64,000 nucleotides of DNA from Dehalococcoidia bacterium (lineage in GTDB: Bacteria > Chloroflexota > Dehalococcoidia > SZUA-161 > SpSt-899), in NCBI GenBank assembly GCA_041300025.1, contig JBGLNL010000001.1, forward strand, positions 1,598,005 through 1,662,004, given 5' to 3'. Positions 1 to 64,000 of the stretch are shown piece by piece. Within the stretch, counting starts at the first letter, position 1, and each line of letters begins with the position of its first letter. The notes below the pieces were generated by a model. It saw only the letters and a list, made by a program, of their open reading frames with translations, did no database searches and was not told where the DNA came from. Position numbers and translations under genes: made by a program.

Positions 1-1468
1 GCTGCTCATCGACTACTGCCAATGCCAGTCGCTTGAATACCACTTTCTGCTGGATAATGGCCTGAGTTCCGATGAGAATATCCACTTCACCTTCCGACAC
101 CTTCTGCTGAAGTTCCTTTTTCCCTTTCTGGCGGATACTGCCCGTCATCAATCCCACGGTAATGGGTCGATCAAGAACGGACTCGAAGGAGCGGATGATA
201 CCTTCGCCACCGCGGTTTCCCAGCAACTGGCAGATGCCATTGAAATGCTGTTCGGCCAGTATCTCGGTGGGGGCCATCATGGCTGCCTGAGCGCCTCCGG
301 CGACGGCTGCCAGCATTGCCGCAGTGGCAACCACCGTCTTCCCGCTGCCAACATCCCCGTGGAGCAATCTGCTCATGGGTTTGTCCCCCGCGAGATCGGC
401 TTTGACCTCGCTCAAGGCTCGTTTCTGCGCCGGGGTAAGATCGAAAGGCAGGCTGGCCACAAATTTCGCCAGATAACGGGTGCCTGCACCCAGTTCGATT
501 CCTTTTGATCCTTCCTGACGTTCACGCTTTCTGGAAAGTACTCCGATCTGGATGAGGAAAAGCTCATCGAAGGCAAGCCGCCGTCTGGCAGCAAAACATG
601 AAGGCTCGTCCTGAGGGTAATGAGCCTGCCGGATTGCCTCCTGCAGCCCTGTCAGCCGGACATTCTTTCTGACTGCCTCCGGCAAAAAATCTTCCAGTTG
701 AGGAAGGTATAAATCGAGGGCCTGTTTAACCAGCCGGCGCATCTGGCGGGGGTAGAGGCCTTCCGTGAGCGGATAAACGGGAATAAACTGGCCTGAGGGG
801 AGGGCATCCTCCCGGCTGAGGATTTCGTAGGAATTCGGCTGGAATGTTCTGTTGCCCTGCCAAATGGTTGCCCTGCCGCTGATAATCAATCTGGTGTTGG
901 GAGTAAATTTCTGCAGCAGGTAAGGCTGGTTGAAAAAGGGAATTTTCATCGTGGCGGTATCGTCACCGACGATCACCTCGATAATATCCATTCGACGGGC
1001 TCGTTTCTTTGTTGCCTGCCACACCTTAACCACGATGGTTTGTTCAACTTCGGGTTCCAGTTTGGCGATGGGAGTGGGCGAACTGTAATCTATGTGGCGT
1101 CTGGGGAAAAAATAAAGAAGATCCCGAACGGTGGCTACGCCCAGCTTTTCGAACTTGAGGAGCAATTTAGCGCTTATTCCCTTAAGCACGGTGACGGGAG
1201 AATCGAGTGAAGCCGGAGTCGTCACGCTCTTTTTGGGGCTGACGGATTTTTGAGCAACATTCGGGACAATGCCCAATATGGAATCGATCCACTTTTCGCG
1301 CTCTGCCGGGGTCAATTCACGGTAACTCGGATAGGGCAGGCGAATCCTTTCGGGGTATTCCTTATAGAACCGGGTCAGGAACTTATCGAGGCCGCCGCTC
1401 ACCGCTTTGTCATCAAAGCCTCTGGATCGCTCAAATTTCAGGATTTTCTGAAGCTGTTCGAAATCCAA
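1..1468 (-). CDS. recG: ATP-dependent DNA helicase RecG; the 3' end runs off the left edge of the window
   Basis: Manual reverse translation gives LHGDVGSGKTVVATAAMLAAVAGGAQAAMMAPTEILAEQH (Walker A and helicase motifs I/Ia). It also gives the wedge-domain N-terminus LKGISAKLLLKFEKLGVATVRDLLYFFPRRH. The gene is absent from the ORF track because it has no stop in the window. The frame stays open upstream of GTG 1225 to at least TTG 1468, so the start is uncertain (1225 or 1468). Confidence 0.85.
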   Translation of the reverse strand, partial: MDFEQLQKILKFERSRGFDDKAVSGGLDKFLTRFYKEYPERIRLPYPSYRELTPAEREKWIDSILGIVPNVAQKSVSPKKSVTTPASLDSPVTVLKGISAKLLLKFEKLGVATVRDLLYFFPRRHIDYSSPTPIAKLEPEVEQTIVVKVWQATKKRARRMDIIEVIVGDDTATMKIPFFNQPYLLQKFTPNTRLIISGRATIWQGNRTFQPNSYEILSREDALPSGQFIPVYPLTEGLYPRQMRRLVKQALDLYLPQLEDFLPEAVRKNVRLTGLQEAIRQAHYPQDEPSCFAARRRLAFDELFLIQIGVLSRKRERQEGSKGIELGAGTRYLAKFVASLPFDLTPAQKRALSEVKADLAGDKPMSRLLHGDVGSGKTVVATAAMLAAVAGGAQAAMMAPTEILAEQHFNGICQLLGNRGGEGIIRSFESVLDRPITVGLMTGSIRQKGKKELQQKVSEGEVDILIGTQAIIQQKVVFKRLALAVVDEQ

Positions 1469-1491
1469 TTTTCCCGCTTCGGGTCCGGCGA

Positions 1492-2343
1492 TCAGGAGAA
1501 TCGGGAATTTTTTTCGATGATCCCTATAGCGATTGCCCCGGGCCCCAGATATGTTCCGATCACCGGGCCGATTCTGGACTGGTATATTTTTTCTTTGTCA
1601 AATACGGGTGACATCCTCTCGGTGAAGGCGGCAGCTTCTTCGGGAATCGTACTGTGCAGGATAGTCATCTCTTCGATGCCGGAAAACTCCTGCACCATTT
1701 CAAAAAGCCGGGCTAATGCCTTCTTCTGAGTTCGGGCTTTACCTTTCGGCTGCACCTCTCCCTCTCCCGTACCTATGAGTGGCTTGATGCTCAGCAGCGT
1801 GCCCATGAGTGCCTGAGCCTTGCCGATGCGTCCGCCCTTGTGCAGGTATTCCAGCGTATTGACCATGCCGAAGAAATGGGTGCGCGGAATAATTTCACGC
1901 GTTATCCTGAGAGCTTCTTCGAGGTTTGCCCCATTCTGAGCTGCCCTTGCTGCCTTGATTACGATAAGTCCCAGCCCCATCGAGGCCTGAAGGGAATCGA
2001 CTATTTCGATCCGGCAATTAGAATTCATCGCGTCTCGAGCCAGCAGGGCTGAACTGAGGGTACCGCTGAGTTTGGGAGAGATGTGAATGGAAATAATCTC
2101 ATCCGTCTGTTTGCTCAGCAAGTTATAAACTTCGGCAAAAGCGGCGGGGGTGGGCTGGGAAGTGGTGGGAAGGGACTTGCTGTCAGCCAGTTTCCGGTAG
2201 AATTCATCGGCTTTCAGGTCCACCCCGTCAAGATAAGTATCTCTGCCAAAATTTACGCTCAGGGGAACAACGGTTATTCCCAGTGATTGTACTATCGATT
2301 CGGGCAGATCGGCGGTACTGTCGGTCACTACTTTTACCGTCAA
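1492..2343 (-). CDS. DegV family fatty-acid-binding protein
   Basis: 283-aa ORF. The N-terminus VKVVTDSTADLPESIVQSLGITVVPLSVNFGRDTYLDGVDL and TSQPTPAAFAEVY are typical of the DegV family. Confidence 0.85.
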   Translation of the reverse strand: MTVKVVTDSTADLPESIVQSLGITVVPLSVNFGRDTYLDGVDLKADEFYRKLADSKSLPTTSQPTPAAFAEVYNLLSKQTDEIISIHISPKLSGTLSSALLARDAMNSNCRIEIVDSLQASMGLGLIVIKAARAAQNGANLEEALRITREIIPRTHFFGMVNTLEYLHKGGRIGKAQALMGTLLSIKPLIGTGEGEVQPKGKARTQKKALARLFEMVQEFSGIEEMTILHSTIPEEAAAFTERMSPVFDKEKIYQSRIGPVIGTYLGPGAIAIGIIEKNSRFS

Positions 2344-2735
2344 AAAATGCTCCCCTCACTCTGCGGGGAATTCGAATCCCTGTTTACATCTTGAAAGTGC
2401 TTAACAATTTTTCGGTTTTTTCAGCTTCGTTGATGAGCGAACTGCAAGTATGGATCGTTAACAATGGCGGCCAGTCGTCTGGTTTGGGAGTAGTAATACC
2501 GAAGTAATACTTGGTACTGAAAATCCTTCTAATGGGGTATGGAAGCACATTTGATCTGCTGTTATTCTTTAAATGAATGGAAAGGATTTGGTTCCCTGAT
2601 AACCCGAGGGGCAGAGATCCATGCTTTATCGGCCAGCGACAAGGCTTATGATATCAATCAACAGGTGGCTTCTCATGAACACACTTGGAGAAATCGGTTT
2701 GAGGAATCAGCCCGCATGGAAATGAAGGAGGATCG

Positions 2736-4097
2736 ATGGTTTCGAAATTAAAAAACCAGCTTATTGAGATCGTCGGAGAGCGATGGCTTACCGACGATCC
2801 CTGGGAACTGTGCGGCTATGCCCGGGCCTGGAGCTACGAGCCTCATCGACGCCCGGAAATCGTGGTTACTCCGGCAACTACTCAGGAAGTCTCGGAGATC
2901 ATGAAACTGGCCAACGAGACACTCACACCGGTGAATGTCCGCGCCGGCGGTACTACCAATACGGGGGCATCCATCCCGCGCGAAGGCGGTATCACCCTGG
3001 ACCTGAATCGGATGAATGCCCCTATCGAGATGGATGAGGATTCGCAGACCTTCACGGCGCAGGGCGGTGTAACGGTCTACAAGATCATCAAAGACCTTTA
3101 CCGTGGGGGTTGGAAGATCCCATGGAGGCCCGAGTTCGGTAACGCCGTCACCCTTGCTGCGTGGGTAAATTTCAATGGTATGGGTGTGGGCGCTTCGGTC
3201 TACGGCCGGGTAGCCGATTTTGTAGTCGGCCTCGAAGTGGTTCTTCCCACCGGAGAGATCGTGCGGACCGGTTCTTCAAGTTTCGGCAAAGCAGCTAAGT
3301 TCACCCGATATCAGGGGACCGGGCCAGACCTGACCGGCCTTTTCATCGAGTCGCTGGGTACTATGGGTGTCATCACTGAGGTCTACATGCGAATGTACCG
3401 CATCCCGGAAGCTCAGGCTCAGGTCGACTTCGCTTTCGAAGATGAGGACACCATCCAGGAAGCTATCAAAAGGCTTGTCGAGGCTAATATTTCTTACGCT
3501 ATTTGCGTGACAGATGAGCAGATGAGCATCACCAATCGGCTTCCGCCACCCCCGGGCAAATGGGTTCTTTCCCTGCTCGCCGAAGGATGGCAGGAAGAAG
3601 TGGATTTCAGAATCCGGAAGGCTAAAGAAATCGTGGCAGCATGCGGCGGCAGGGAGTTTCCGCCGGGCGCCCGGGCTGCCGAGTGGGGTTCAGCAGCTTC
3701 TATATCTTTGCCGTATGAGCCCTCTCGAAGGCAAGTATCCTGCGGTGGCTTCCATCCCATTCAGGCTACGAGGGATATCTTCAACGCCTACAACGAGGTG
3801 GGCGAGAAGTACGGGCTCAGGAGGGGAATGGGCTGGTGGGTCTGTGCGAACTACTGCAATCAATTCCCCATTTACGTCTATGACGAAGAAACAGATACGG
3901 ACACGATCTTCAAAATGGTTGGGGAAGTCCATGGGCGCTGGATTGAGGCAGGTTATGTTCCTGACTACCCCGGCCCGTTCCCAAACATGACTCCCCACAT
4001 TGCCCGGCCTTACTTGGAACTCTACCGCCGGGTGAAAAAGATGATCGATCCAAATAATATTATGCACCGTGGCATGAAGCCGGATGTGGCAGACTAA
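2736..4097 (+). CDS. FAD-binding oxidoreductase (GlcD / D-lactate dehydrogenase-like)
   Basis: 453-aa ORF. It carries a PCMH-type FAD-binding N-domain pattern (VVTPATTQEVSEIMKLANETLTPVNVRAGGTTNTG ... ITLDLNRMN). It is followed directly by an Fe-S CCG-domain partner. Confidence 0.8.
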   Translation: MVSKLKNQLIEIVGERWLTDDPWELCGYARAWSYEPHRRPEIVVTPATTQEVSEIMKLANETLTPVNVRAGGTTNTGASIPREGGITLDLNRMNAPIEMDEDSQTFTAQGGVTVYKIIKDLYRGGWKIPWRPEFGNAVTLAAWVNFNGMGVGASVYGRVADFVVGLEVVLPTGEIVRTGSSSFGKAAKFTRYQGTGPDLTGLFIESLGTMGVITEVYMRMYRIPEAQAQVDFAFEDEDTIQEAIKRLVEANISYAICVTDEQMSITNRLPPPPGKWVLSLLAEGWQEEVDFRIRKAKEIVAACGGREFPPGARAAEWGSAASISLPYEPSRRQVSCGGFHPIQATRDIFNAYNEVGEKYGLRRGMGWWVCANYCNQFPIYVYDEETDTDTIFKMVGEVHGRWIEAGYVPDYPGPFPNMTPHIARPYLELYRRVKKMIDPNNIMHRGMKPDVAD

Positions 4098-4106
4098 GGA
4101 GGCATC

Positions 4107-5285
4107 ATGGATTACCCGAAACTCAATGAATATCATTTGAAATTATGGAATGACCAGGCCTGCGGCGTCTGCCAGCGAGGACCGTGGACGCCCTATCCGC
4201 CGCGAGGCCCGGCGCCAGATCGGCTGTGTCCCACTTGGGAACACTATCGCCGGATCTCTTACAGCGCACAGGGCTGGATTCAGGCGGGCCGGACGCTGCT
4301 GGAAGGCAAGCTGGAGATGGAGCCTCGATTTGTTGATTATGTATATGCCTGTAACCTCTGCGGTTCATGTACCAACTCCCGATGCGTAGTGGCCGGAGAT
4401 CAGGTGAATATAATCAAGGCATGGCGCGAGGATTTGGTGAATCTGGGATACGGGCCAACCGCTCCCTGGAAAAAGGATGCCGAACTGATCGAAAGAAGCG
4501 GCAACCGGTTTGGACGTAATCAGGCAGATCGGGCCAAATGGGCAGACGGGATGAATCTCCCCGGAAAAGCCGATGTTGTGTTCTTTGCCGGGTGTGTGGC
4601 CTCCTTCCGCAAGCCGGAACTGGCACAGGCAACGGCAAAGGTTCTCAAAGCCGGGGGTGTCGACTTCGCCATATTAGGCGAAAATGAATTCTGCTGCGGC
4701 AATCCGCTGGAACAATCCGGGCAAGCAAAGGCCTATGAGGAAGTTGCCAGGAGAAATGTGGCTGCTTTACAGGAAGCCGGTGCTAAAACAGTAGTAACCG
4801 CCTGTGCCTGCTGCTTCCATAATCTGGCGGTACAATATCCAAAGGTGGTTGGTAAACTGCCGTTTAAGGTGATCCATCAGGTGGAGTTGCTCTCGCAACT
4901 GGTGGCCGAAGGCAGGATTAAGCCGGTCAAAGCCCCTGCTGGAAAGATGACATACCAGGACCCCTGTCACCTGGTTCGGATGGGAGCTAAGATATACAAC
5001 GAACCGAGGTCGGTGATCCAGTCTGTTCCGGGAATGGACTATGTCGAGATGGAAGCCAGCAAGCGAGCATCCTGGTGCTGCGGACGAAATCCGGTGGAAC
5101 AGCCGGAACTGGCGATGACCACCGGGCAATACCGGATAGAGGATGCCCAGTCGGCCGGTGCTGAGACCATCCTCACGGCCTGCTCTTTCTGTAACTGGAG
5201 TTTGGGGCGGGCGGCGAAGGACATGGAGACTAATGTGAGGATTATGTCAATAGACCAGATGCTGACCGAATCGATGGGAATGTAG
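4107..5285 (+). CDS. Fe-S oxidoreductase with two cysteine-rich CCG domains (GlcF/HdrD-like)
   Basis: 392-aa ORF. Cys clusters CNLCGSC, FFAGCVASF...EFCCGNP and YQDPCHLVR...WCCG match the 4Fe-4S plus tandem CCG architecture. Confidence 0.8.
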   Translation: MDYPKLNEYHLKLWNDQACGVCQRGPWTPYPPRGPAPDRLCPTWEHYRRISYSAQGWIQAGRTLLEGKLEMEPRFVDYVYACNLCGSCTNSRCVVAGDQVNIIKAWREDLVNLGYGPTAPWKKDAELIERSGNRFGRNQADRAKWADGMNLPGKADVVFFAGCVASFRKPELAQATAKVLKAGGVDFAILGENEFCCGNPLEQSGQAKAYEEVARRNVAALQEAGAKTVVTACACCFHNLAVQYPKVVGKLPFKVIHQVELLSQLVAEGRIKPVKAPAGKMTYQDPCHLVRMGAKIYNEPRSVIQSVPGMDYVEMEASKRASWCCGRNPVEQPELAMTTGQYRIEDAQSAGAETILTACSFCNWSLGRAAKDMETNVRIMSIDQMLTESMGM

Positions 5286-5298
5286 TGACCTGTTTGTT

Positions 5299-5406
5299 TA
5301 AGGAACCTCTGATCAACCCCCTGTATCCCCCAATCATGGGGGAAGATCGAAGCTGGGGGGACACCCCCAGACCCCCGAAGTCACCACTTATTCAGAGGTT
5401 CCCTAA
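5299..5406 (+). repeat. MITE-like dispersed element, copy A (full length, reference copy)
   Basis: The termini TAAGGAACCTCTGA (5299-5312) and TCAGAGGTTCCCTAA (5392-5406) are inverted repeats. The core has G5/C5 hairpins (cccccaatcatggggg, ggggggacaccccc). Related copies occur at 8 other sites in the window. Confidence 0.8.
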
Positions 5407-5453
5407 TAAACCCTTAAACTGTTAAACTATCAACTGAAAACAAATATCTGCCC

Positions 5454-5960
5454 GTGCAGCGAATTTTCTCAAGTATATCTATCTACCAAGAGGCTTGTCA
5501 AGTAAAAAAAATAGATTCAGTAATTCAAAACTCATCCCTTCCAGTTGTGCTGTACAACAATCCTGAAATTCATCGAGGGAAAATGCTGCCACTTTCCATT
5601 GTTTCAAAATATGCGGTCCATCCCAGAATAATCGGCATCAAAGACAGTTCCGGGGATTGGGAATATTTTCTTAAGCTGCTTGAGTTGCGTTCGGAAAGCT
5701 TTTCGATATTGCAGGGGAAAGAATCATCCATTCTGCCATCGCTGCTGGCCGGTGCGAATGGAATAGTTGCCGGAACGGCTAACGTCAACCCCGGGCTTTT
5801 TGCGAAAATTCTGTCTCATCAAGATGAGGAAACGATGCGCCAGATCACGGAGTTAAAGGATGAACTGAAGGAACTTGCCGAGAAACCGATTCCGGCACTT
5901 AAGCAAAAACTGGTCCATCTCGGAGTCATCAATTCTGCAGAGATTCTGGTTAAGCTATAG
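5454..5960 (+). pseudogene. 5'-truncated dihydrodipicolinate synthase / N-acetylneuraminate lyase family gene (C-terminal ~170 aa only)
   Basis: LPVVLYNNPEIHRGKMLPL...IIGIKDSSGDWEYF...GANGIVAGTANVNP matches the C-terminal two thirds of DapA-family aldolases. About 100-120 N-terminal residues are missing. The segment is AT-rich and lies directly after MITE copy A. Confidence 0.6.
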
Positions 5961-7238: not shown

Positions 7239-7340
7239 TCCTGCAACCTATCAAGCTTGCGGTGATTATAACATGCCGACCAGTCGTTCCGAAAGTTGGA
7301 CAAATTGATAGTCTTTCTGTTACTATTAAACGTCGACTGC

Positions 7341-7369
7341 TTGACATTCTCATCTGGGAATGATTAAAT
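7341..7369 (+). promoter_or_regulatory. candidate sigma70-type promoter upstream of rpsL
   Basis: TTGACA (7341-7346), a 17-nt spacer, then TTAAAT (7364-7369), about 50 nt upstream of the rpsL start. Confidence 0.35.
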
Positions 7370-7418
7370 CTGATATTGTTGAGTTCACAACTATACTATT
7401 AAGAAAGGGGCGAAAGTA

Positions 7419-7838: not shown

Positions 7839-7876
7839 CCCTTTCCTTTGCCACGGAAGAGAAATCTTAAACGAGG

Positions 7877-7912
7877 AGCTTCCGTCATCACTGACATGAT
7901 GGAAGCTTTTTC
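7877..7912 (+). terminator. hairpin plus T-run between rpsL and rpsG (terminator/attenuator-like)
   Basis: agcttcc (7877-7883) pairs with ggaagct (7901-7907), with inner tcat/atga pairing, followed by ttttt. Confidence 0.3.
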
Positions 7913-7934
7913 GATGCAATAAGGGGTGCCAAAA

Positions 7935-8405: not shown

Positions 8406-8412
8406 TTCAGGC

Positions 8413-57026: not shown

Positions 57027-57191
57027 TGTCTCTCCATCTTCTGGTTCTTTTCGGCTATATCGAACAGTTTATTAAACAAACTTCCTGCTCTTCCCACTTA
57101 TTCATAACTCACGGAAAGATTCCGGAGAAAAGCTTCACTCTCGCTGGAAGAGGAAAAACCCTCTGAGTCAAGGGGCTTAAAGGCTCGCCTC

Positions 57192-57283
57192 TGGCGGAGG
57201 GAGTGGGATTCGAACCCACGATCAGGTTTAACCCCGATAAGCGCTTAGCAGGCGCCCGCACTAGACCACTATGCGATCCCTCC
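57192..57283 (-). tRNA. tRNA-Ser (anticodon GCU), CCA encoded
   Basis: The reverse complement is GGAGGGATCGCATAGTGGTCTAGTGCGGGCGCCTGCTAAGCGCTTATCGGGGTTAAACCTGATCGTGGGTTCGAATCCCACTCCCTCCGCCA. It folds with a 7-bp acceptor stem, anticodon loop CTGCTAA, a long variable arm and T-arm GTGGG-TTCGAAT-CCCAC. Confidence 0.9.
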
Positions 57284-57428
57284 CGTTGGCAAACTATACC
57301 ATTATAAAGCAAAGAGGCTATTTTTCAAAGAGCCACGGGGACAAATATATTCATTCTTGACAAAATACTATCCCACAGCATATTCTAATCGAAGTGGATT
57401 CACTATATACTGTCCATTTTCTTAAAGC

Positions 57429-59042
57429 ATGCTTTCAATGGTACTCAGCAGAATGCAAACAAAAGCGAGCCTCTTCGTCGAGTCAAAGGTGGCATCTATC
57501 TTGACCCGCTTGCAACCATTCCTTGCATCTCGAAGCATCGAGCCTTTTCTCGTTGGCGGATACGTCAGGAATGGCATCCTCGGAAAAACGAGCCATGATA
57601 TTGACCTCGCAGTTGACTGCGAAACTATCAATACTGCCATAGAGGCAGCCGATTTTTTGAACGGCAGGTTCGTGCTGCTCGATGAACTTCATCAGATTGC
57701 CAGAGTTGTCCTGATGCAAAACGACCAGAGATGGCATCTCGATTTTGCCGCCACCAGAGGATCCATCGAAGAGGACTTAACCAAGCGCGACTTCACCATC
57801 GACTCAATAGCCGTAAACCTAACACAGCTTGAGGCAGGATGGAATCAGGTGGAATGCATCGATCCGCTGGAAGGTATCGGCGATCTCGAAAGAAAGCTCA
57901 TCCGGGCTACAAATGAATCCATATTCAGGGATGATCCGGCCCGCCTTTTGCGCGCGTTCCGGCTGGCAGCCGAATTCGGGTTCTCCATCGAACCTCAAAC
58001 TGAAAAACTCATTGAACGCGATGGCGAACTGATTGCCAGCGTCAGTGGGGAAAGGATTCGGGAGGAACTCGGGCGTATCCTCGAAACAGATCAAACCACA
58101 GCATCGCTGCGGCAAATGGACCGGCTGGGATTTCTCGATTACCTCATACCGGAGCTTTCGGTCTGCAAAGGTGTCGAACAACCCAAAGAGCATTTCTGGA
58201 ATGTCTTTGACCATTCCATAGAAACAGTAGCAGCCACGGAGAGACTCCTGGCGGCATTGAAATCAGATGATGAGTTGCTCGATTCTTTTGCCTTCTCAAC
58301 TGAACTGGTTGAATACTTTGAGCAAAAGGCGGGCAACGGCCTTACCCGCAAGGCACTGATTAAACTGGCTGCCCTGCTGCACGACGTGGCAAAACCACAG
58401 GCAAAAAGCTTCGATGAGGAAAAAGGCAAAATGCGCTTTCTGGGACATGCTCAAGAGGGTGCCCGTATCGCCGGAAATATTCTGGAACGGTTTCGATTCA
58501 GTTCGCTGGAAAAGGAAATAGTAACCAGAGTGATCGACCAGCACATGAGGCCGGGGCATCTCAGCAACACCCCGGAACCACCGACACCTCGGGCTGTTTA
58601 CCGCTACTTCCGAGATAATTCTGATACAGGGATCGATACCCTCTTCCTCAGCCTCGCCGATCATTTAGCCACGCGAGGGCCTTCATTAGGAATAGAGAAC
58701 TGGCAAAAACATCTGGCAGTAACCGGGCAAATGCTCTACAGTTGGTTCAATGAAGAGACAGTAGTTTCGCCTCCGAAGCTTATAGATGGCCACACCCTGA
58801 TCGAAACACTGGGGATGTCACCGGGGCCAGAGATAGGCAAGTTGCTGGAAACCGTGCGGGAAGCTCAGGCTTCCGGGGAAATTAAAACCAGGGAAGAAGC
58901 CCTGGATATTGCTAGAAAGGAGTTCGACAAGAAACATGCGTCTTCCTGCCGGGGGTTTTGGGGGTGTCCCCCAACACAAACTTCCCCCATGATTGGGGGA
59001 TCGAGGGGGCTGAAAAAGAGTTTTCAGACAACCTGTACATGA
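57429..59042 (+). CDS. cca: CCA-adding enzyme / poly(A) polymerase family tRNA nucleotidyltransferase with HD domain; C-terminal tail read from a repeat
   Basis: LVGGYVRNGILGKTSHDIDLAV, RDFTIDSIA, ALLHDVAKP (HD). The last ~30 codons (SSCRGFWGCPPTQTSPMIGGSRG..) are MITE copy C sequence. Confidence 0.8.
   Translation: MLSMVLSRMQTKASLFVESKVASILTRLQPFLASRSIEPFLVGGYVRNGILGKTSHDIDLAVDCETINTAIEAADFLNGRFVLLDELHQIARVVLMQNDQRWHLDFAATRGSIEEDLTKRDFTIDSIAVNLTQLEAGWNQVECIDPLEGIGDLERKLIRATNESIFRDDPARLLRAFRLAAEFGFSIEPQTEKLIERDGELIASVSGERIREELGRILETDQTTASLRQMDRLGFLDYLIPELSVCKGVEQPKEHFWNVFDHSIETVAATERLLAALKSDDELLDSFAFSTELVEYFEQKAGNGLTRKALIKLAALLHDVAKPQAKSFDEEKGKMRFLGHAQEGARIAGNILERFRFSSLEKEIVTRVIDQHMRPGHLSNTPEPPTPRAVYRYFRDNSDTGIDTLFLSLADHLATRGPSLGIENWQKHLAVTGQMLYSWFNEETVVSPPKLIDGHTLIETLGMSPGPEIGKLLETVREAQASGEIKTREEALDIARKEFDKKHASSCRGFWGCPPTQTSPMIGGSRGLKKSFQTTCT
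58950..59027 (-). repeat. MITE-like element, copy C (core conserved, ends degenerate)
   Basis: The reverse complement contains gatcccccaatcatgggggaag....ttgggggacaccccca.aacccccg, matching the copy A core. Confidence 0.7.
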
Positions 59043-59149
59043 AACATTAGTGATGTCCTTTTATAATTGCCGGGTTAATAGCCGTGAACCTCGATGATAA
59101 GCATCATGAAAGATTTTGCTTGGAAAAGCGCCCGGTGTTAGAATAGAGT

Positions 59150-60637
59150 TTGAGTATGGATTCCGACCAGTTCAAATGCTTATTTAATCCGCGGTCTGTA
59201 GCGGTTATCGGCGCTTCCAACACTTTTGGGAAATGGGGTTTTAACATCTTCAATCGGGTGTTGGCCTCAAGTCCGGGACGGGCTGTTTATCCCGTTAACA
59301 GGGAATCATCAGAAGTGCTGGGTGTCCGGGCTTACGAAAGCATTACCGATGTCCCGGAACCGGTCGAACTTGCCGTAATTACTGTTCCCCCCAAATTCGT
59401 TCCCTATGTGATCTGTGATTGCGCCCGCAAAGGCGTGAAAGTTGCGGAGATCATCACTGCCGGTTTTGGGGAAGTCGGGGAAGAGGGAGAAGGGCAGGAG
59501 CGGGAGATGATTAAGGTAGCGGGCGCGAGCGGGATGCGCCTCGTAGGGCCCAATTCGATGGGCCATCTGGATACTCATGCTGATTTTTACACTTCTCCCT
59601 GGATAACCGGTGTCAAAAAGGGGGGTGTTGGCCTCATTTCACAGAGCGGAAATTTTGGCATTAATGTCATCCGGGCGGGTATGGCTATGGGGGTGGGCTT
59701 CTCCAAATTTATCAGCAGTGGAAACGAAGCCGATTTGAAGTTTGAAGATTATCTGGAACAGTTTGCTAACGACGAAAATACCAGAGTGATTATTGCCTAT
59801 GTGGAAGGATTGCGTCAGGGCCAGCGCTTTTTGAAGCTGGCTAAAGAGATAACCAAACGCAAACCTATAGTGATTCTGAAAGCCGGCAGAACCGGCTCCG
59901 GGGCCAGGGCAGCGCATTCGCATACGGCGACCCTTGCCGGAGAGGACCGGATATACGATGCGGTTTTCAGGCAGACCGGTGTAATCAGGGTTGATGGAAT
60001 CGATGAACTGATTGATACGGCGGGCACGCTTCTTCGCCAGCCGATTCCTGAAGGCAGAAAGGTAGGAATCCTGACCGGGGGAGGTGGTCCCGGTGTAATT
60101 GCCACCGACGCTTGCGAGCGTCTGGGTCTTGAGATAGCGGATATTTCCCGTTCCACGATTGAGAAGCTGAATGCGATTCTCCCCCCACGCTGGCCGCAGG
60201 CTAATCCGGTTGATATGGTGGGGGAGACCACTCTCACCTATCCATGCCTGCTGGAACTGATCGAGGATGAGAATGTCGATGCGGTATTGTCTCTGGCAGT
60301 TGGATTTGCCGATGCCATTCGAACGATCGTGATGGATTATGTCCATTCCGATATCTATGATGAGGTTGATCGTTTTATCAAGTCTGAAGAAAAGAGGGAA
60401 CTGGAACAATTAAAACAAGTGATCGAGCGGATGGATGCTCTGGGCAAACCCGTGTTTTTCTGCCCGCCATCCGGGATCGAGGACCTTTCAACCATCACTC
60501 ACCTTTCACAAAATGGAATCCTTACCTATCCGAGTATGGAGCGTGCGGCAAAGGCGCTGGCTCATCTGGCCGGTTACGGGGAATATCTGAGCACGTCACG
60601 ATTAAGTGATGAGGGTAACGAAGCGGCCGCCGGTTAG
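59150..60637 (+). CDS. ADP-forming acetyl/acyl-CoA synthetase family protein (CoA-binding plus CoA-ligase domains)
   Basis: PRSVAVIGASNTFGKWGFNIF, VPEPVELAVITVP, LVGPNSMG, ISQSGNFG, HSHTATLAG. Confidence 0.8.
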   Translation: MSMDSDQFKCLFNPRSVAVIGASNTFGKWGFNIFNRVLASSPGRAVYPVNRESSEVLGVRAYESITDVPEPVELAVITVPPKFVPYVICDCARKGVKVAEIITAGFGEVGEEGEGQEREMIKVAGASGMRLVGPNSMGHLDTHADFYTSPWITGVKKGGVGLISQSGNFGINVIRAGMAMGVGFSKFISSGNEADLKFEDYLEQFANDENTRVIIAYVEGLRQGQRFLKLAKEITKRKPIVILKAGRTGSGARAAHSHTATLAGEDRIYDAVFRQTGVIRVDGIDELIDTAGTLLRQPIPEGRKVGILTGGGGPGVIATDACERLGLEIADISRSTIEKLNAILPPRWPQANPVDMVGETTLTYPCLLELIEDENVDAVLSLAVGFADAIRTIVMDYVHSDIYDEVDRFIKSEEKRELEQLKQVIERMDALGKPVFFCPPSGIEDLSTITHLSQNGILTYPSMERAAKALAHLAGYGEYLSTSRLSDEGNEAAAG

Positions 60638-60698
60638 TGTTCAGTAATCAGAAAAAGTGGTATTATGGAGTTTAAAAATCGGCAATAAGGGGTAAATC

Positions 60699-61178
60699 AT
60701 GGAAGAGATTCTCAAGATACTCGAAGATGATGCCAGAACCACTCCCGAGCAGATTGCCACCATGACTGGCAAGAGCAGGAAAGAGGTAAAGGAATACATC
60801 CGTCAGGCCGAAAAAGACCGTACTATTGTCAAATACAAAACGATGGTCAACTGGGAGAAGCTTGGCAGAGAAGAAGTCTGGGCTATTATCGAAGTCAGGC
60901 TGCAACCGCAGCGTGAGGTGGGGTTTGATTCCGTGGCCGAGCGTATTTATCGTTTCCCCGAAGTCCGGTCAGCTTATCTGGTTTCCGGGGGATATGATCT
61001 GGCTGTCATGGTGACCGGTAAGACGATTCAGGAAGTAGCCGGATTTGTATCGCGGAAGCTGGCAACTCTGGAAATGGTGCAGGGAACGGCGACCCACTTT
61101 TTGCTGAAGCGTTATAAAGAGGATGGAGAAATACTCGAAGGTGAGGAAAAGCCTAAAAGGCAGCCGATGACCCTTTGA
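60699..61178 (+). CDS. Lrp/AsnC family transcriptional regulator
   Basis: 159 aa. N-terminal wHTH ILKILEDDARTTPEQIATMTGKSRKEVKEYI, and a C-terminal RAM-like domain VRSAYLVSGGYDLAVMV. Confidence 0.75.
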   Translation: MEEILKILEDDARTTPEQIATMTGKSRKEVKEYIRQAEKDRTIVKYKTMVNWEKLGREEVWAIIEVRLQPQREVGFDSVAERIYRFPEVRSAYLVSGGYDLAVMVTGKTIQEVAGFVSRKLATLEMVQGTATHFLLKRYKEDGEILEGEEKPKRQPMTL

Positions 61179-61321
61179 TTTGCCGGGATACGGTTATCAA
61201 AAAATCTTTACCTGTAGAACAATAGTCCTTGCCCCGGTAATACCACGGCACACCGTTCCCCGCAACTCGTTTTCGTCCGGATTTATTACCCTTTTTATCC
61301 AGTAACGGTCAAACACAAGAT

Positions 61322-61348
61322 GGGGGGCAGGTTGAAAACCTGCCCCCC
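61322..61348. terminator. strong GC hairpin, bidirectional terminator-like, downstream of the response-regulator gene
   Basis: ggggggcagg-ttgaaaa-cctgcccccc: a 10-bp perfect stem located 8 nt past the stop at 61356. Confidence 0.6.
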
Positions 61349-61355
61349 TTGGCCT

Positions 61356-61790
61356 TTATTTGGACATGACCATCTTTTCAAAATCCATCGGGAAGTAGGT
61401 ACCGTTATAGACTGCCCTTACCCCATCGACAAGTTGAGTGCTGGCGGCTTTTTTGGGTATGAATCCCAAAGCTCCGGCTTCCGCACAGACTTGCATGTTT
61501 TCCTCTTCATCGTATTGCGTAAGGATAAGGACCCTGGTTTGCGGATACTGTTTGACGATCTCTTTAGTTGCCTGAACTCCGCTCATAACCGGCATCATGA
61601 TATCGAGTAATGCCACATCGGGCATGAGCCGAGAGAGCTTATCGAGTGCTTCTTTGCCGTTACCGGCTTCACCCACCACCGCCATATCTTTTTGTAATGC
61701 CAGAACGGCGCATATTCCGTCGCGGACCATGGTGTGGTCATCCGCCACCAGCACTTTGATGATCTTTTCGATCTGTTCCACAATAGTCAT
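61356..61790 (-). CDS. response regulator receiver domain protein (NarL-type receiver, no output domain)
   Basis: MTIVEQIEKIIKVLVADDHTMVRDGICAVL...PDVALLDIMMPVMSG...VLILTQY...GALGFIPKKA. It has its own ATG at 61790, but the track merges it in frame with the upstream antiporter fragment. Confidence 0.7.
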   Translation of the reverse strand: MTIVEQIEKIIKVLVADDHTMVRDGICAVLALQKDMAVVGEAGNGKEALDKLSRLMPDVALLDIMMPVMSGVQATKEIVKQYPQTRVLILTQYDEEENMQVCAEAGALGFIPKKAASTQLVDGVRAVYNGTYFPMDFEKMVMSK

Positions 61791-62852
61791 CACGTTCGCA
61801 TTGACATGGCCGAAGTCCACCCCGATTGCGACGATGACAAGGGAAAACTCACTTATTTGAGCCAGATTGAGAGGCACCAGGAAACTTACCCGAATGCCTT
61901 TCCGCATAAAATAAAGTGGAGGAAACACAGTAATAAAGCGGCTGGCTATAAGGAAAAGGGAAGCCAAAAGAGACATGATGATGTTATGAGTGCTTGGCTC
62001 ATCCACTTTCATGCCCAGAGATACGAAAAACAGAATCAGGAAGAAAGAACGGATACTGGTAACCCTGTCACTTATCTCCTGTCTGTATGGGAATGCGGAA
62101 AGGCTGATACCGGCAATCAGTGCCCCCATCGCCCGGCTCAATTCAGCCACATCGCCTGAAATCCACGAAATCAGGAAACACCATCCCAGCGCGGTGACAA
62201 GGACAAGCTCAGGGCTCTTGGCAATGCCCCTGAACACGATCGGGAGAACAAAGCGGCTGGCCAGCACGCAACCTGCGATCAAAGCTGCTCCCTTGAGCAT
62301 GGACAAAGCCAGCTTGTAAACTTCCGGATTGGCCAGGTCAGGCTGTATAGTCAGGAAAATAATCGCCCAGATATCCTGTAAAACGAGTACTCCCAGAGTC
62401 AGCCGCCCGGGCAGAGTGTCAAGCTCGAACTTGTCATAGAGAATCTTGACCACAATCATGGTGCTGCTGAGGGCGAACGTGATCGATAAATACAGGGCAG
62501 CATATTTGCCGCCATCATCGAATCCGGGAAGATTGAAAAATGCCAGTCCAAGGGCAACGCACAAAGCAAACTGGAGAACTGCTGTGATCAGAAGTGATTT
62601 GCCGAAACGTCTGATCTTTCCGAGGTTCAATTCCAAACCAACCATGAACAGCAGGGCGATCAGGCCCAGTTCGGAACTGAAATCAATCACTTCCGGTTCG
62701 GTTACCCATTCAAGTCCAAGCTGAGGACCAATGAGAATACCCGCTATTATATATCCGAAAATAACCGGCTGACGAAGCAGATGGACGATATAACCCAAAA
62801 ATGCCGCAGCGACAATCGAGATCAAAACGCCATTGATTATTTCAGTTTCCAT
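61791..62852 (-). CDS. cation:proton antiporter (CPA2/Kef-type Na_H_Exchanger), 3'-truncated
   Basis: PVIFGYIIAGILIGPQLGL, ELGLIALLFMVGLELNL, LAQISEFSLVIVAIG. The last TM segments are missing and it runs in frame into the receiver domain. Confidence 0.75.
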
Positions 62853-62897
62853 ATTTACACATCTTTACCGAATACTACACCTTACATGCGACCAATT

Positions 62898-64000
62898 TCA
62901 ACGACAGGCTGTAACCCGGTAGACCTTCACCGGCTCCGATTTCCCCTTAAATGTTTGAGCCTCCAACTCTTCAACTTCCAAATATTCATGTGCCTGACTA
63001 TATGTTTCCGGCCCGATCCATATTTCATCACCAGGGGTAGCACTGCAAATTCGAGAGGCCAGGTTGACACTATCCCCGATAACCGTATATTCGACACGTC
63101 CGGCGGACCCCACATTACCGGCAATGGCCTTCCCCGTATTAATGCCTATGCCGAATTGCACTCTCAGGATTGATTCATCGCTTCGAGGTAGCGCCATCAA
63201 AGCTTGCTGAGCCTCTATCGCTGCTTTCACTGCGAGTCTGGCATGCTCCGCCTGAGCTTCGGGGGCATTCCACACAGCCATAATATTATCACCGGCAAAC
63301 TTATTAACCATGCCACCGTTCTGCAGGACTTTGTCGATTACAATGGAAAGATGCTCATTGAGCATACTGACAACGGAGTCGGGAGACATCTGCTCGCTCA
63401 TCTGGGTGAAATGGCGGATATCTGCAAAGAGCACAGTGACTTCCCGCGTCTCGCCTCCAAGATTGAGCTGGCCGTTATTAGCCAGATGGATAATCTCTCT
63501 GGCAACCTGAGGCGAAACGTATCGGCCAAAAAGGTTGCTGACAAATCGTTTATCTGATTGGCCAATAACAACAAGGCACATAACATGGGCGATGAAAAGC
63601 ACCAGTATAAGCGATAGCGGATATAACATATTGAGAATGTAACCCATATCGAAACTGATAAAAATGCCTGCCACGTAACCGATGAACAGGAGCAACAGCA
63701 ACGATATCCCCCATCGTAATTTCAAGTGTGGCAAAGCTAAAGCTATGATAACTACCAGTAATAGTAAAATCAACAATGTAATTATCTTACCCGCTTCGCT
63801 CAAGTATTGTTCCCTTAATATTGTGTCAGCCGCTGCCGCATGAATGAATACTCCCGGTATCTTCCCGGATTTTGTAGGGACTGCCCATGCATCAAGTTCG
63901 CCGGTGGCCGTCATCCCAATCAGCACCATCTTGTTTTTTACCAGCGAAGGGTCGAAATTGCCACTGATAACATCCCCATAAGAAATGTAATCGAATCCTT
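62898..64000 (-). CDS. CHASE2-domain adenylate/guanylate cyclase; the 5' end runs beyond the right edge
   Basis: Class III cyclase domain VTVLFADIRHFTQMSE...KFAGDNIMAVWNAP...IGINTGKAIAGNVGS..RVEYTVIGDSVNLASR. It is preceded by 3 TM segments and the end of a CHASE2 domain (KMVLIGMTATG...GVFIHAAAADTIL). The frame is open to position 64000. Confidence 0.85.
   Translation of the reverse strand, partial: GFDYISYGDVISGNFDPSLVKNKMVLIGMTATGELDAWAVPTKSGKIPGVFIHAAAADTILREQYLSEAGKIITLLILLLLVVIIALALPHLKLRWGISLLLLLFIGYVAGIFISFDMGYILNMLYPLSLILVLFIAHVMCLVVIGQSDKRFVSNLFGRYVSPQVAREIIHLANNGQLNLGGETREVTVLFADIRHFTQMSEQMSPDSVVSMLNEHLSIVIDKVLQNGGMVNKFAGDNIMAVWNAPEAQAEHARLAVKAAIEAQQALMALPRSDESILRVQFGIGINTGKAIAGNVGSAGRVEYTVIGDSVNLASRICSATPGDEIWIGPETYSQAHEYLEVEELEAQTFKGKSEPVKVYRVTACR

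What the first reader, a model, noticed from the sequence alone, without database searches (positions are those of the whole stretch)
1..64000. Window-wide mosaic: at least a dozen junctions where truncated genes abut with no intergenic DNA
Homology to well-known families stops abruptly and a different truncated gene begins at these junctions:
- 8631/8632: fusA 5' fragment against an ABC-exporter 5' fragment, tail to tail.
- About 11700: a GNAT-associated C-terminal fragment against a gmhB C-terminal fragment.
- About 13600: an epimerase stub.
- 14782: 3'-truncated asnB against a 5'-truncated sugar transferase.
- About 20897: a Mo-oxidoreductase against obg, both lacking 5' ends.
- 23911/23912: trpB against gyrA.
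- About 29830: a TOBE fragment.
- 35640-35820: a MacB fragment, AT-rich filler, an adapter, and a methyltransferase fragment.
- About 38790: a CBS fragment against a dehydratase fragment.
- 41730: an ADH stub against msrA.
- About 44575 and about 47490: both ends of the histidine kinase.
- About 50382, 53256, about 56086, about 58950 and about 61790.

Spot counts of single 60-nt lines range from about 37% G+C (line 9001) to about 70% (line 11401). A native bacterial chromosome would not carry this density of broken essential genes (fusA, gyrA, obg). The most economical reading is concatenated or chimeric short contigs, possibly from more than one organism. Every apparent fusion protein and every operon context in this window must be judged against this possibility.
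Basis: partly seen in the sequence, partly recalled or inferred. Interest (0 to 1): 0.7.

Follow-up and report, generated by a model that had tools for sequence, protein, structure and literature searches.

The report
Short assembly contigs glued end to end
The "mosaic" is real, but it is an assembly artefact: this 64-kb window is 22 separate ~3-kb contigs of a fragmented Dehalococcoidia metagenome bin, joined end to end without spacers in order of decreasing length, so every gene "fusion" or neighbourhood that crosses a joint is false.

Summary

- **Structure.** The window holds 22 contigs (2.84-3.13 kb) joined at 21 junctions, with no N spacers.
- **Pinned junctions.** Independent contigs of the same population (NCBI MAGs JBFYUM-JBFYUR, Logan and JGI assemblies, 98-100% identical) fix 13 junctions to within 1 base. 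These contigs run straight through each junction with the "broken" gene intact (gyrA 826 aa, trpB 400 aa, obg 331 aa, and others). Identity to the window falls from 56-60/60 to random at the junction.
- **Length order.** The nine exactly measured contig lengths fall strictly along the window: 3084, 3071, 3057, 3052, 3015, 2988, 2983, 2891, 2840.
- **True neighbours.** Two non-adjacent contigs share an exact 99-nt terminal overlap. Joining them rebuilds a full gyrA.
- **Adapter.** One contig ends in a 19-nt Illumina TruSeq adapter prefix.
16 of the 17 listed positions are true junctions, each within 52 nt or less. The "epimerase stub" near 13600 is a native gene relic, not a junction. Five junctions were missed.
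- **One organism or several.** Most segments share one composition and recur together in related MAGs. Five low-GC segments are unresolved.
- **Database impact.** The chimeric ORFs are already recorded in a public protein collection, from a single 1,771,430-nt NCBI sequence.

Biological interest is low. The result matters for quality control.

The parts
1..2370 (.). Contig a (partial; runs off the window start): recG 5' part and a complete DegV gene. The right end lies somewhere in 2343-2396.
   Evidence: Pfam. The end is inferred only from the length ordering and the DegV start at 2343.
2371..5496 (.). Contig b: FAD-binding oxidoreductase, CCG-domain protein and a REP-like repeat at 5299-5407. 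The right end lies in 5488-5505.
   Evidence: Pfam. The next gene (DHDPS) starts at profile position 120/289. The length ordering gives the same interval. The proteins lie on the 1,771,430-nt NCBI sequence.
5497..8632 (.). Contig c: 5'-truncated DHDPS-family gene, amidohydrolase, rpsL, rpsG and a fusA 5' fragment (3'-truncated).
   Evidence: L005 (JBFYUN010000246.1) matches window 6061-8632 at 99.5% and continues 196 nt further with fusA.
8633..11716 (.). Contig d (3084 nt; G+C 45% over the contig, about 40% in its 9-10.5-kb core): ABC-exporter 5' fragment (minus strand), DUF7690/DUF7687 protein, HTH protein and a Dam-type methyltransferase.
   Evidence: L001 and L002 are 100% identical to window 8702-11092 and 9897-11180. 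Pfam. The exporter N-terminus was read directly.
11717..14787 (.). Contig e (3071 nt): HAD 3' fragment, SIS isomerase, GHMP kinase, native epimerase stub, and a 5'-truncated sugar transferase.
   Evidence: L052 (Ga0105099_10008885) positions 781-3851 match window 14787-11717 at 99.8% and continue on both sides with a 515-aa transferase and a 184-aa HAD.
14788..17844 (.). Contig f (3057 nt): 3'-truncated asnB, a methyltransferase and an unknown ORF.
   Evidence: Pfam: Asn_synthase 1-146/354. The ends are fixed by the neighbouring contigs e and g.
17845..20896 (.). Contig g (3052 nt): first ~33 codons of a DUF1214-like gene, TerC, and a 5'-truncated molybdopterin oxidoreductase.
   Evidence: L012-L016 are colinear over window 17845-20897 at 99.0-99.4% and continue on both sides. 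The oxidoreductase is 689 aa there.
20897..23911 (.). Contig h (3015 nt): 5'-truncated obg, nadD-like gene, phosphoribosyltransferase, and the gyrA 3' part (minus strand).
   Evidence: L003 and L004 match at 99.6% and continue on both sides.
23912..26899 (.). Contig i (2988 nt): trpB 5' part (3'-truncated), trpF, trpC and a 186-aa gene.
   Evidence: L006 positions 585-3572 match window 26899-23912 at 98.7% and continue on both sides. trpB is 400 aa there.
26900..29882 (.). Contig j (2983 nt): two HGD-D-family dehydratase subunit genes.
   Evidence: Pfam. Closest GTDB genome: a Dehalococcoidia MAG, 85% nt identity.
29883..32857 (.). Contig k (~2975 nt): modC-like 3' (TOBE) fragment, a tungstate/molybdate binding protein, a TOBE protein and TrmO. 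The right end lies in 32850-32865.
   Evidence: L058 (Ga0105106_10013563) positions 3309-5949 match window 29883-32523 at 99.5% and continue to the left with a 366-aa ModC. The right end comes from the length ordering.
32858..35818 (.). Contig l (~2961 nt): unknown ORFs and a MacB-type permease that breaks off near 35650, then 136 nt at 29% G+C, then adapter.
   Evidence: Pfam: MacB_PCD 1-197/207 with no FtsX domain. Adapter at the contig end. The length ordering allows 35806-35848 for this joint.
35800..35818 (+). Illumina TruSeq Read-1 adapter prefix, AGATCGGAAGAGCACACGT (19 nt exact), marking the end of contig l.
   Evidence: By my own calculation the chance expectation is about 5e-7 per window.
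35819..38780 (.). Contig m (~2961 nt): unknown ORF, tgt, UbiA prenyltransferase and a CBS-pair gene. The right end lies in 38774-38786.
   Evidence: Pfam. The CBS/HGD-D homology boundary lies at 38750-38791, and the length ordering gives the stated interval.
38781..41730 (.). Contig n (~2950 nt): 5'-truncated HGD-D gene (profile 159-342/342), a second HGD-D gene, an NMO-family oxidoreductase and a short stub.
   Evidence: Pfam. The right end is fixed by contig o.
41731..44621 (.). Contig o (2891 nt): msrA part of msrAB (5'-truncated inside the GCFWG motif), DJ-1/PfpI, CBS, glutaredoxin and an FMN reductase.
   Evidence: L007-L011 match at 98.1-98.9% and continue on both sides: a 322-aa MsrAB upstream, and desulforedoxin plus a P-type ATPase downstream.
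44622..47505 (.). Contig p (~2884 nt): one open frame throughout, a PAS-rich histidine kinase lacking its 5' end. The right end lies in 47500-47512.
   Evidence: Pfam. The end comes from the length ordering.
47506..50383 (.). Contig q (~2878 nt): unknown ORF, a glycosyltransferase, and a 3'-truncated phosphodiesterase (700 aa in relatives). The right end lies in 50380-50387.
   Evidence: Pfam: Phosphodiest 1-248/342. Cluster relatives are 700 aa.
50384..53256 (.). Contig r (~2873 nt): starts in a REP-like repeat; endonuclease V, CvpA, and the gyrA 5' part (3'-truncated).
   Evidence: L003 positions 6467-9082 match window 53256-50641 at 98.5%. Pfam.
23813..23911 (-). The 99-nt end of contig h is the exact reverse complement of the 99-nt end of contig r (53158-53256). 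This is a de Bruijn-graph k-mer overlap between true genomic neighbours.
   Evidence: Merging the two contigs gives an 826-aa gyrA, 821/826 identical to the gyrA of L003, and 5,532 nt colinear with L003 at 99.1% without gaps.
53158..53256 (+). Partner of the 99-nt overlap, at the end of contig r.
53257..56099 (.). Contig s (~2843 nt): znuA, znuC and a znuB-like ABC-3 permease cut a few codons before its end. The right end lies in 56098-56100.
   Evidence: Pfam. The length ordering forces 56098-56100. Relatives carry a 277-aa permease against the 291-aa chimeric ORF here.
56100..58940 (.). Contig t (~2841 nt): starts in a REP-like repeat; lgt, tRNA-Ser(GCT), and a CCA-adding enzyme gene (3' end cut).
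   Evidence: Pfam. tRNA. Relatives carry 483-507 aa against the 537-aa chimeric ORF here.
58941..61780 (.). Contig u (2840 nt): starts in a REP-like repeat; an acetyl-CoA-synthetase-like (ADP-forming) subunit, an AsnC regulator, and a 5'-truncated response regulator.
   Evidence: L017-L021 match at 98.8-99.6% and continue on both sides. The regulator is 272 aa there.
61781..64000 (.). Contig v (partial; runs off the window end): 3'-truncated Na/H exchanger and a CHASE2 adenylate/guanylate cyclase.
   Evidence: Pfam.
22700..24775 (-). Artefactual 691-aa ORF reading from TrpB (contig i) in frame into the GyrA C-terminus (contig h).
   Evidence: Pfam. It exists in the public protein collection only as a singleton from a 1,771,430-nt NCBI sequence.
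44454..48230 (+). Artefactual 1258-aa ORF spanning three contigs: the tail of o, all of p and the head of q.
61356..62852 (-). Artefactual 498-aa ORF fusing a Na/H exchanger to a receiver domain, across the u|v joint.
   Evidence: Pfam. It is a singleton in the collection, from the same 1,771,430-nt sequence.
13589..13672 (-). Native 27-codon relic of an NAD-dependent epimerase gene, between the sugar transferase and the GHMP kinase. It is not a contig joint.
   Evidence: It is present in L052 (same population) and in L050 (76% nt relative with the same gene order). The epimerase reading frame continues well past the stub's stop in L041, as far as it was aligned.

Best explanation
The window is not one piece of chromosome. 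It is a run of 22 short contigs (about 3.13 down to 2.84 kb) from a fragmented short-read metagenome-assembled genome of an uncultured Dehalococcoidia-like population. The contigs were written one after another, in arbitrary orientation, in order of decreasing length, without N spacers.

Shown:
- Each joint is a contig end.
- The genes cut there are intact in the organism.
- ORFs that read across a joint are artefacts.

Inferred: why the assembler broke the genome at these places. Candidates are de Bruijn-graph branch points from strain variation (relatives differ by 0.4-1.9%), copies of a dispersed REP-like repeat (three contigs start in it), and an adapter-contaminated tip.

Also inferred, but strongly indicated: the concatenation is already present in the sequence as held by a public collection, an NCBI-derived 1,771,430-nt sequence.
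For: 1. **Collinearity stops at the joints.** Thirteen joints are crossed by independent contigs from five or more NCBI MAGs, Logan and JGI assemblies at 98.1-100% identity. Identity over 60 nt is 56-60/60 inside each joint and 6-21/60 (random) outside.
2. **The cut genes are intact elsewhere.** In those contigs gyrA is 826 aa, trpB 400 aa, obg 331 aa, msrAB 322 aa, the sugar transferase 515 aa, HAD 184 aa, modC 366 aa, the response regulator 272 aa and the Mo-oxidoreductase 689 aa.
3. **Lengths are sorted.** The exactly measured lengths are 3084, 3071, 3057, 3052, 3015, 2988, 2983, 2891, 2840, strictly decreasing. By my own calculation the chance of that order is 1/9!, about 3e-6. The ordering predicts narrow intervals for the other joints, and these contain independent marks: the adapter end at 35818 lies in 35806-35848, and the repeat start at 56101 sits next to 56098-56100.
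4. **Two contigs are true neighbours.** Window 23813-23911 is the exact reverse complement of 53158-53256 (99 nt). Merging the two contigs rebuilds an 826-aa gyrA colinear with L003.
5. **Adapter.** The TruSeq adapter prefix sits at 35800-35818.
6. **Already in a public collection.** The chimeric ORFs (691-aa TrpB-GyrA, 498-aa NhaP-REC, and others) occur in the 15-billion-protein collection only once each, from NCBI, on one sequence of 1,771,430 nt. Ordinary proteins from contigs b, c, d, f, h, j, k, n and s lie on that same sequence.
Against: - Eight of the 21 joints (a|b, b|c, k|l, l|m, m|n, p|q, q|r, s|t) are located only by the length ordering plus domain truncation, repeat or adapter marks. 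No independent contig crosses them.
- The a|b and k|l joints fall in intergenic DNA and have no mark of their own.
- No reads or contig table could be examined.
- Who concatenated the contigs (depositor, collection or scan pipeline) is inferred only from a recorded contig length.
Confidence: 0.97

Rival explanations
1. This is a genuine, contiguous chromosome region that is heavily rearranged or decaying, so the truncated genes are real pseudogenes and fusions.
For: One truncated gene is native: the epimerase stub at 13589-13672 is present in independent assemblies and in a relative only 76% identical.
Against: Single-copy essential genes are cut (fusA, gyrA, obg, trpB), yet they are intact in populations 98-99.6% identical. 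The two halves of gyrA lie 27 kb apart in the window with a perfect 99-nt overlap. Segment lengths are sorted. An adapter sits at one joint.
Confidence: 0.01
2. The bin is a mixture: at least one of the concatenated contigs comes from a different organism or from a mobile element that was binned wrongly.
For: - Contigs d, e, f, k and q have low G+C (0.44-0.47). Their tetranucleotide correlation to the rest of the window is 0.64-0.80. That falls inside the range of unrelated loci (0.34-0.83) and below the other 17 segments (0.85-0.92).
- The SIS protein of contig e shares a 90%-identity cluster with a protein of an Anaerolineales MAG.
- For contigs d and e, the only exact or near-exact copies found outside the source record were in Logan or JGI assemblies, not in the related NCBI MAGs.
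Against: - These segments carry polysaccharide-synthesis, restriction-modification-like and transporter genes, which are often atypical islands within one genome.
- Contig d occurs in Logan SRR28346263, whose accession is adjacent to the runs (SRR28346262, SRR28346267) in which core contigs were found.
- Exact proteins of contigs k and q are on other NCBI contigs of 6.9 and 38 kb.
- Seven core segments were found in the JBFYUM-JBFYUR MAG series, five of them in GCA_041300065.1 alone.
Confidence: 0.2
3. The contigs are separate records in the public deposit, and they were glued together only downstream, by the protein collection or by the scan that cut the window.
For: Nothing in the window itself says who did the joining. 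The look-up of encoding contigs never returned the source record.
Against: In the same collection, other NCBI MAGs keep their individual contig lengths (5002, 9082, 15944 nt, and so on). The window's proteins, including the ORFs that cross joints, are attributed to one NCBI sequence of 1,771,430 nt.
Confidence: 0.25
4. The joints are assembler misjoins (chimeric contigs) inside a few long contigs, not simple concatenation of separate contigs.
For: One internal break may be of this kind. The MacB gene stops near 35650, and 136 nt at 29% G+C plus adapter follow inside contig l.
Against: Misjoins would not be spaced at strictly decreasing intervals of 3084 down to 2840 nt. Nor would they place two true neighbours 27 kb apart while each keeps the full 99-nt overlap.
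Confidence: 0.02

Closest known systems
Multi-FASTA draft or MAG assembly concatenated into a pseudo-molecule, with contigs sorted by length
   Same: Segment lengths decrease strictly. Orientation is arbitrary. Genes are cut at both ends of almost every segment. True neighbours (contigs h and r) are far apart.
   Different: Usual practice inserts runs of N between contigs. Here there is none, so gene callers read across the joints and create chimeric proteins.
De Bruijn-graph contig ends sharing a k-mer overlap (final k of about 99-100, as in MEGAHIT, SPAdes or IDBA-UD settings)
   Same: The ends of contigs h and r share an exact 99-nt overlap inside gyrA. Relatives differ by 0.4-1.5% there, which fits a strain-variation branch point.
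   Different: Only one overlapping pair lies within this window. The assembler and its k cannot be identified from the sequence alone.
Adapter-contaminated contig tips (Illumina TruSeq read-through)
   Same: A 19-nt exact adapter prefix lies in the insert-to-adapter orientation at a contig end.
   Different: Only the first 19 nt of the adapter are present. The 136 nt before it are AT-rich, not colinear with the truncated MacB gene, and of unexplained origin.
Pseudogene-rich, decaying bacterial genomes (for example Mycobacterium leprae or recent endosymbionts; from general knowledge)
   Same: A high density of truncated genes.
   Different: In those genomes the breaks are shared by independent isolates and essential genes stay intact. 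Here the breaks are absent from populations 98-100% identical, and essential genes are cut.

Membership tests
Concatenated assembly contigs (artefact) | Collinearity with independent assemblies of the same population ends exactly at the joint, and the independent contig continues with different sequence. | tested here: met
   Met at 13 joints. Identity is 56-60/60 inside and 6-21/60 outside (alignments).
Concatenated assembly contigs (artefact) | Genes cut at the joints are full length in the organism. | tested here: met
   gyrA 826 aa, trpB 400 aa, obg 331 aa, msrAB 322 aa, modC 366 aa, sugar transferase 515 aa, HAD 184 aa.
Concatenated assembly contigs (artefact) | The segments follow a bookkeeping order (sorted by length) rather than a biological one. 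| tested here: met
   Nine exactly measured lengths decrease strictly from 3084 to 2840. Contigs h and r, true neighbours, are 27 kb apart and in opposite orientation.
Concatenated assembly contigs (artefact) | Assembler or library signatures at segment ends (k-mer overlap, adapter, repeats). | tested here: met
   A 99-nt exact overlap, the TruSeq prefix at 35800-35818, and three contigs that start in a dispersed repeat.
Concatenated assembly contigs (artefact) | No reads or read pairs span the joints; clipped reads occur at the joints. | not testable with these tools
   No read data are available.
Native rearranged or pseudogenised chromosome | The same junction is present in independent genomes or assemblies. 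| tested here: not met
   Absent at all 13 tested joints. The feature is met only for the epimerase stub at 13589-13672, which is therefore native.
Multi-organism chimera (mis-binned contigs) | Segments differ in composition and co-occur with different genomes. | tested here: inconclusive
   17 of 22 segments are homogeneous (r = 0.85-0.92). Contigs d, e, f, k and q are atypical (r = 0.64-0.80). Seven core segments were found in the JBFYUM-JBFYUR MAG series, five of them in one MAG. No linkage data exist for the atypical ones.

The most novel reading that the evidence does not exclude
The breaks may not be random. They could mark real features of this uncultured Dehalococcoidia population:
- Strain-level polymorphism inside core genes such as gyrA.
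- An apparently undescribed dispersed REP-like repeat, about 95-110 nt with G5/C5 hairpins, that has many intergenic copies per genome and no Rfam match at gathering thresholds.
- Low-GC islands (polysaccharide and restriction-modification-like genes), one of which keeps a conserved relic of an epimerase gene.

Separately, a public 1.77-Mb "single-sequence" genome record would then be an unflagged concatenation that has seeded chimeric proteins into databases.
Probability: 0.4. Interest if true: 0.25.

Novelty: not a real feature. Interest (0 to 1): 0.12.

Why it matters
It matters for quality control, not biology.

- **Anything crossing a joint is false.** Any operon context, gene fusion, giant ORF or pseudogene call in this window that touches one of the 21 joints is an artefact. 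Examples are the 691-aa TrpB-GyrA ORF, the 1258-aa histidine kinase and the NhaP-receiver fusion.
- **The artefacts have spread.** At least six joint-crossing ORFs are already in a 15-billion-protein public collection, and two of them form singleton "families".
- **The whole source record is suspect.** The same is probably true along the whole 1.77-Mb source sequence. Other windows from that record should be judged against contig-sized (≤3 kb here) blocks.
- **Within a contig, context is sound.** The data there are good: 98-100% identical to independent assemblies.

Tried and rejected
- **Exact 80-mer from contig h against GTDB representative genomes:** no match. The species has no identical representative there.
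- **Exact-protein contig look-ups that found nothing**: GHMP kinase, rpsG with the wrong start, tgt, the CCG protein and a 139-aa ORF. Joints a|b, b|c, k|l, l|m and m|n therefore stayed unpinned.
- **Concatenated 3,792-aa query against genome contigs**. It returned only relatives of contig j (Dehalococcoidia MAGs, 78-87% aa identity) plus distant glycosyltransferase hits. It gave a taxonomic hint but no joint.
- **Six-peptide query against JGI metagenomes**. The 80 kept hits were mostly distant sugar transferases. Two of them (L052, L058) were the same population and pinned three joints. Hits for contigs b, m, q and s were not among the 80 kept.
- **Paper search for the run and assembly accessions:** nothing found.
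- **Contigs e and f as true neighbours** (asnB followed by the sugar transferase on the same strand): rejected. The 320 nt upstream of the transferase in L052 hold no asnB 3' end.
- **l|m joint near 35650, at the MacB break:** rejected. It would make contigs k and l shorter than later contigs. The break is internal to contig l.
- **13-nt Nextera-like match at 40992:** chance level.
- **Rfam at gathering thresholds:** only tRNA-Ser was found. The repeat is not a known RNA family.

Full report
**1. The observation**

The window contains no N. Its G+C in 1-kb windows varies between 0.39 and 0.56. Pfam scans of the stop-to-stop reading frames next to the listed coordinates confirm that recognisable genes end abruptly:
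- fusA stops after GTP_EFTU positions 1-57 of 188, at 8631/8632.
- A 76-codon frame starting at 11687 holds only the C-terminal HAD sub-domain.
- asnB stops at Asn_synthase position 146 of 354.
- Obg lacks its N-terminal domain.
- A single 691-aa ORF (22700-24775, minus strand) reads TrpB (PALP 5-194 of 295) in frame into the end of the GyrA DNA_topoisoIV domain and the GyrA β-propeller.
- msrA begins inside its GCFWG motif at 41731.
- A gyrA 5' part ends at 53256, at DNA_topoisoIV 418 of 432.
- A 498-aa ORF fuses a Na/H exchanger to a receiver domain at about 61780.

An ABC-exporter N-terminus lies on the minus strand right after 8632. An Illumina adapter lies near 35800.

**2. What the junctions are**

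Exact-protein look-ups found contigs of closely related populations in several sources: NCBI MAGs (WGS prefixes JBFYUM, JBFYUN, JBFYUO, JBFYUP, JBFYUQ, JBFYUR), Logan assemblies of SRR28346262/63/67, and JGI metagenomes Ga0105099 and Ga0105106.

BLAST of these contigs against the window shows blocks of 98.1-100% identity that stop exactly at the proposed joints, while the foreign contig continues. Over the 60 nt inside each block end, 56-60 bases match. Over the 60 nt beyond it, 6-21 match, which is random.

This fixes 13 joints to within 1 base: 8632, 11716, 14787, 17844, 20896, 23911, 26899, 29882, 41730, 44621, 53256, 58940 and 61780.

In the independent contigs the cut genes are whole:

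| Gene | Length in independent contigs |
|---|---|
| gyrA | 826 aa |
| trpB | 400 aa (PALP 5-295/295) |
| obg | 331 aa, with GTP1_OBG domain |
| msrAB | 322 aa |
| Mo-oxidoreductase | 689 aa |
| response regulator | 272 aa |
| sugar transferase | 515 aa |
| HAD phosphatase | 184 aa |
| modC | 366 aa |

**3. Bookkeeping order**

The blocks whose two ends are both pinned measure 3084, 3071, 3057, 3052, 3015, 2988, 2983, then 2891, then 2840 nt. They decrease strictly along the window. By my own calculation the chance of that order is 1/9!, about 3e-6.

Assuming sorted lengths, the remaining joints are confined to narrow intervals, and each interval contains or borders an independent mark:

| Joint | Interval from length ordering | Independent mark |
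|---|---|---|
| l\|m | 35806-35848 | the adapter prefix ends at 35818 |
| s\|t | 56098-56100 | the dispersed repeat begins at 56101; ABC-3 homology ends at about 56083 |
| q\|r | 50378-50414 | phosphodiesterase homology ends at about 50380; repeat begins at 50388 |
| m\|n | 38774-38786 | CBS / HGD-D homology boundary |
| p\|q | 47500-47512 | just after the kinase HATPase domain |
| b\|c | 5488-5514 | DHDPS homology starts at profile position 120 |
| k\|l | 32850-32865 | none (intergenic) |
| a\|b | 2343-2396 | none (intergenic) |

In total there are 21 joints and 22 contigs.

**4. Assembler and library signatures**

A self-comparison found that 23813-23911 is the exact reverse complement of 53158-53256. 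The overlap is 99 nt, and both copies end precisely at joints. L003 and L004 show that these two contigs are neighbours in the genome. Merging them through the overlap gives an 826-aa gyrA that is 821/826 identical to the L003 copy. The merged scaffold is 5,790 nt, of which 5,532 nt are colinear with L003 at 99.1% without gaps. This is the signature of de Bruijn-graph contigs that end at a branch with k of about 99-100.

Contig l ends in the first 19 nt of the TruSeq Read-1 adapter.

Contigs r, t and u begin inside copies of a dispersed repeat, which is a classic cause of contig breaks.

**5. The one listed place that is not a joint**

The "epimerase stub" exists: ATG...[27 protein letters not shown]-stop, at 13589-13672 on the minus strand. 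However, L052, an independent JGI contig, is 99.8% identical across 11717-14787 without interruption.

The same stub, in the same gene order (sugar transferase, stub, GHMP kinase, SIS isomerase, HAD), is present in L050, a relative only 76% identical. In L041 the epimerase reading frame continues well past the stub's stop, as far as it was aligned. The stub is therefore an old, native remnant left when a heptose-pathway cassette replaced the epimerase gene.

A second internal oddity is the MacB-type permease. It breaks off near 35650, and 136 nt at 29% G+C plus adapter follow. The length ordering puts this inside contig l, so it is probably a chimeric or contaminated tip. I could not establish where the 136 nt come from.

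**6. One organism or several**

Seven contigs (c, g, h, i, o, r, u) were found in the JBFYUM-JBFYUR MAG series. Five of them (h, i, o, r, u) lie in GCA_041300065.1 alone.

Members of the same 90%-identity clusters are annotated "[Dehalococcoidia bacterium]" for proteins of contigs b, n and r. The nearest GTDB representative for contig j is a Dehalococcoidia MAG at 85% nt identity.

Tetranucleotide profiles give three ranges:
- 17 window segments correlate at 0.85-0.92 with the rest of the window.
- Loci from the related MAGs correlate at 0.86-0.93.
- Unrelated loci correlate at 0.34-0.83.

Contigs d, e, f, k and q are low in G+C and correlate at only 0.64-0.80. They carry restriction-modification-like, polysaccharide and transporter genes. 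The SIS protein of contig e clusters at 90% or more with an Anaerolineales MAG protein. They may be genomic islands or mis-binned contigs, and I cannot decide which. Exact proteins of contigs k and q do occur on other NCBI contigs of 6.9 and 38 kb.

**7. Where the concatenation lives**

Exact look-ups show that ordinary window proteins from contigs b, c, d, f, h, j, k, n and s are attributed to one NCBI sequence of 1,771,430 nt. So are six ORFs that read across joints: 691-aa TrpB-GyrA, 498-aa NhaP-REC, 324-aa phosphodiesterase plus tail, 457-aa gyrA 5' part plus tail, 291-aa ABC-3 plus tail, and 537-aa CCA enzyme plus tail. Two of them (the 691-aa and 498-aa ORFs) form singleton clusters; the others cluster with their full-length relatives.

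Other NCBI MAGs in the same collection keep their individual contig lengths. The most likely reading is that the source record itself is a gapless concatenation. That is an inference from a recorded length, not something I could inspect.

**8. Verdict**

16 of the 17 listed positions are true joints within 52 nt or less, five joints were missed, and one listed place is a native relic. The interpretation as concatenated short contigs is supported with high confidence (0.97).

Nothing here is a biological mosaic. Gene context is trustworthy only within each roughly 3-kb block. Interest is low except as a data-quality warning.

Noticed in passing
window 5299-5407, 50388-50477, 56101-56136, 58941-59035; partial copies at 53505-53552, 42630-42664, 19053-19079; many copies in L012/L013 (2856-3107, 5480-5862, 7251-7340), L017 (1309-1413, 8338-8426, 11080-11196), L006 4675-4781, L007 10399-10492: A dispersed intergenic repeat of about 95-110 nt. 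Its conserved core is ...TTTTTCA(A/G)CCCCCT..ATCCCCCAATCATGGGGGAAGTTT...GGGGGACACCCCCAGACCCCCG..., with two short G5/C5 hairpins. There are two 3'-end variants and both orientations occur. No Rfam family matches at gathering thresholds. It looks like a REP/MITE-type element of this Dehalococcoidia population. Three window contigs start inside it.
   Followed up: partly
window 13589-13672 (minus strand): A 27-codon relic of an NAD-dependent epimerase gene between the sugar transferase and a GHMP kinase / SIS / HAD (heptose-type) cassette. It is conserved in an independent contig of the same population and in a 76%-identical relative. In another relative (L041) the epimerase reading frame continues past the stub.
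   Followed up: yes
window 35650-35818: The MacB-type permease gene loses homology about 155 nt before the contig end. Then follow 136 nt at 29% G+C and the 19-nt TruSeq adapter prefix. The origin of the AT-rich stretch (chimeric library fragment or real insertion) is unknown.
   Followed up: partly
window 8921-10973: A low-GC (about 40%) cassette: a DUF7690/DUF7687 protein (282 aa), an 83-aa XRE-type HTH protein and a D12-class (Dam-like) N6-adenine methyltransferase (301 aa). It is 100% identical in Logan SRR28346263, and part of it in JGI 3300009082. It looks like a restriction-modification or defence module, possibly mobile.
   Followed up: no
window 22700-24775 (minus strand), 61356-62852 (minus strand), 49594-50568, 51889-53262, 55331-56206, 57429-59042: ORFs that read across contig joints are already stored in the public protein collection (P0034, P0035, P0036, P0039, P0045, P0048). 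All are attributed to one NCBI sequence of 1,771,430 nt. Two of them are singleton clusters. This is database pollution by chimeric proteins.
   Followed up: yes
window 19056-19086: A short variable spacer between TerC and the molybdopterin oxidoreductase: 31 nt here against 61 nt in the related MAG contigs (L012-L016). It lies next to a partial copy of the dispersed repeat.
   Followed up: no
window 26968-29547 and 38603-40602: Four genes or fragments of the HGD-D family (2-hydroxyacyl-CoA dehydratase / benzoyl-CoA-reductase-like subunits) on two different contigs, which points to several paralogous dehydratase systems in this organism.
   Followed up: no
window 57192-57283 (minus strand): tRNA-Ser (anticodon GCT), the only RNA gene detected in the window.
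   Followed up: yes
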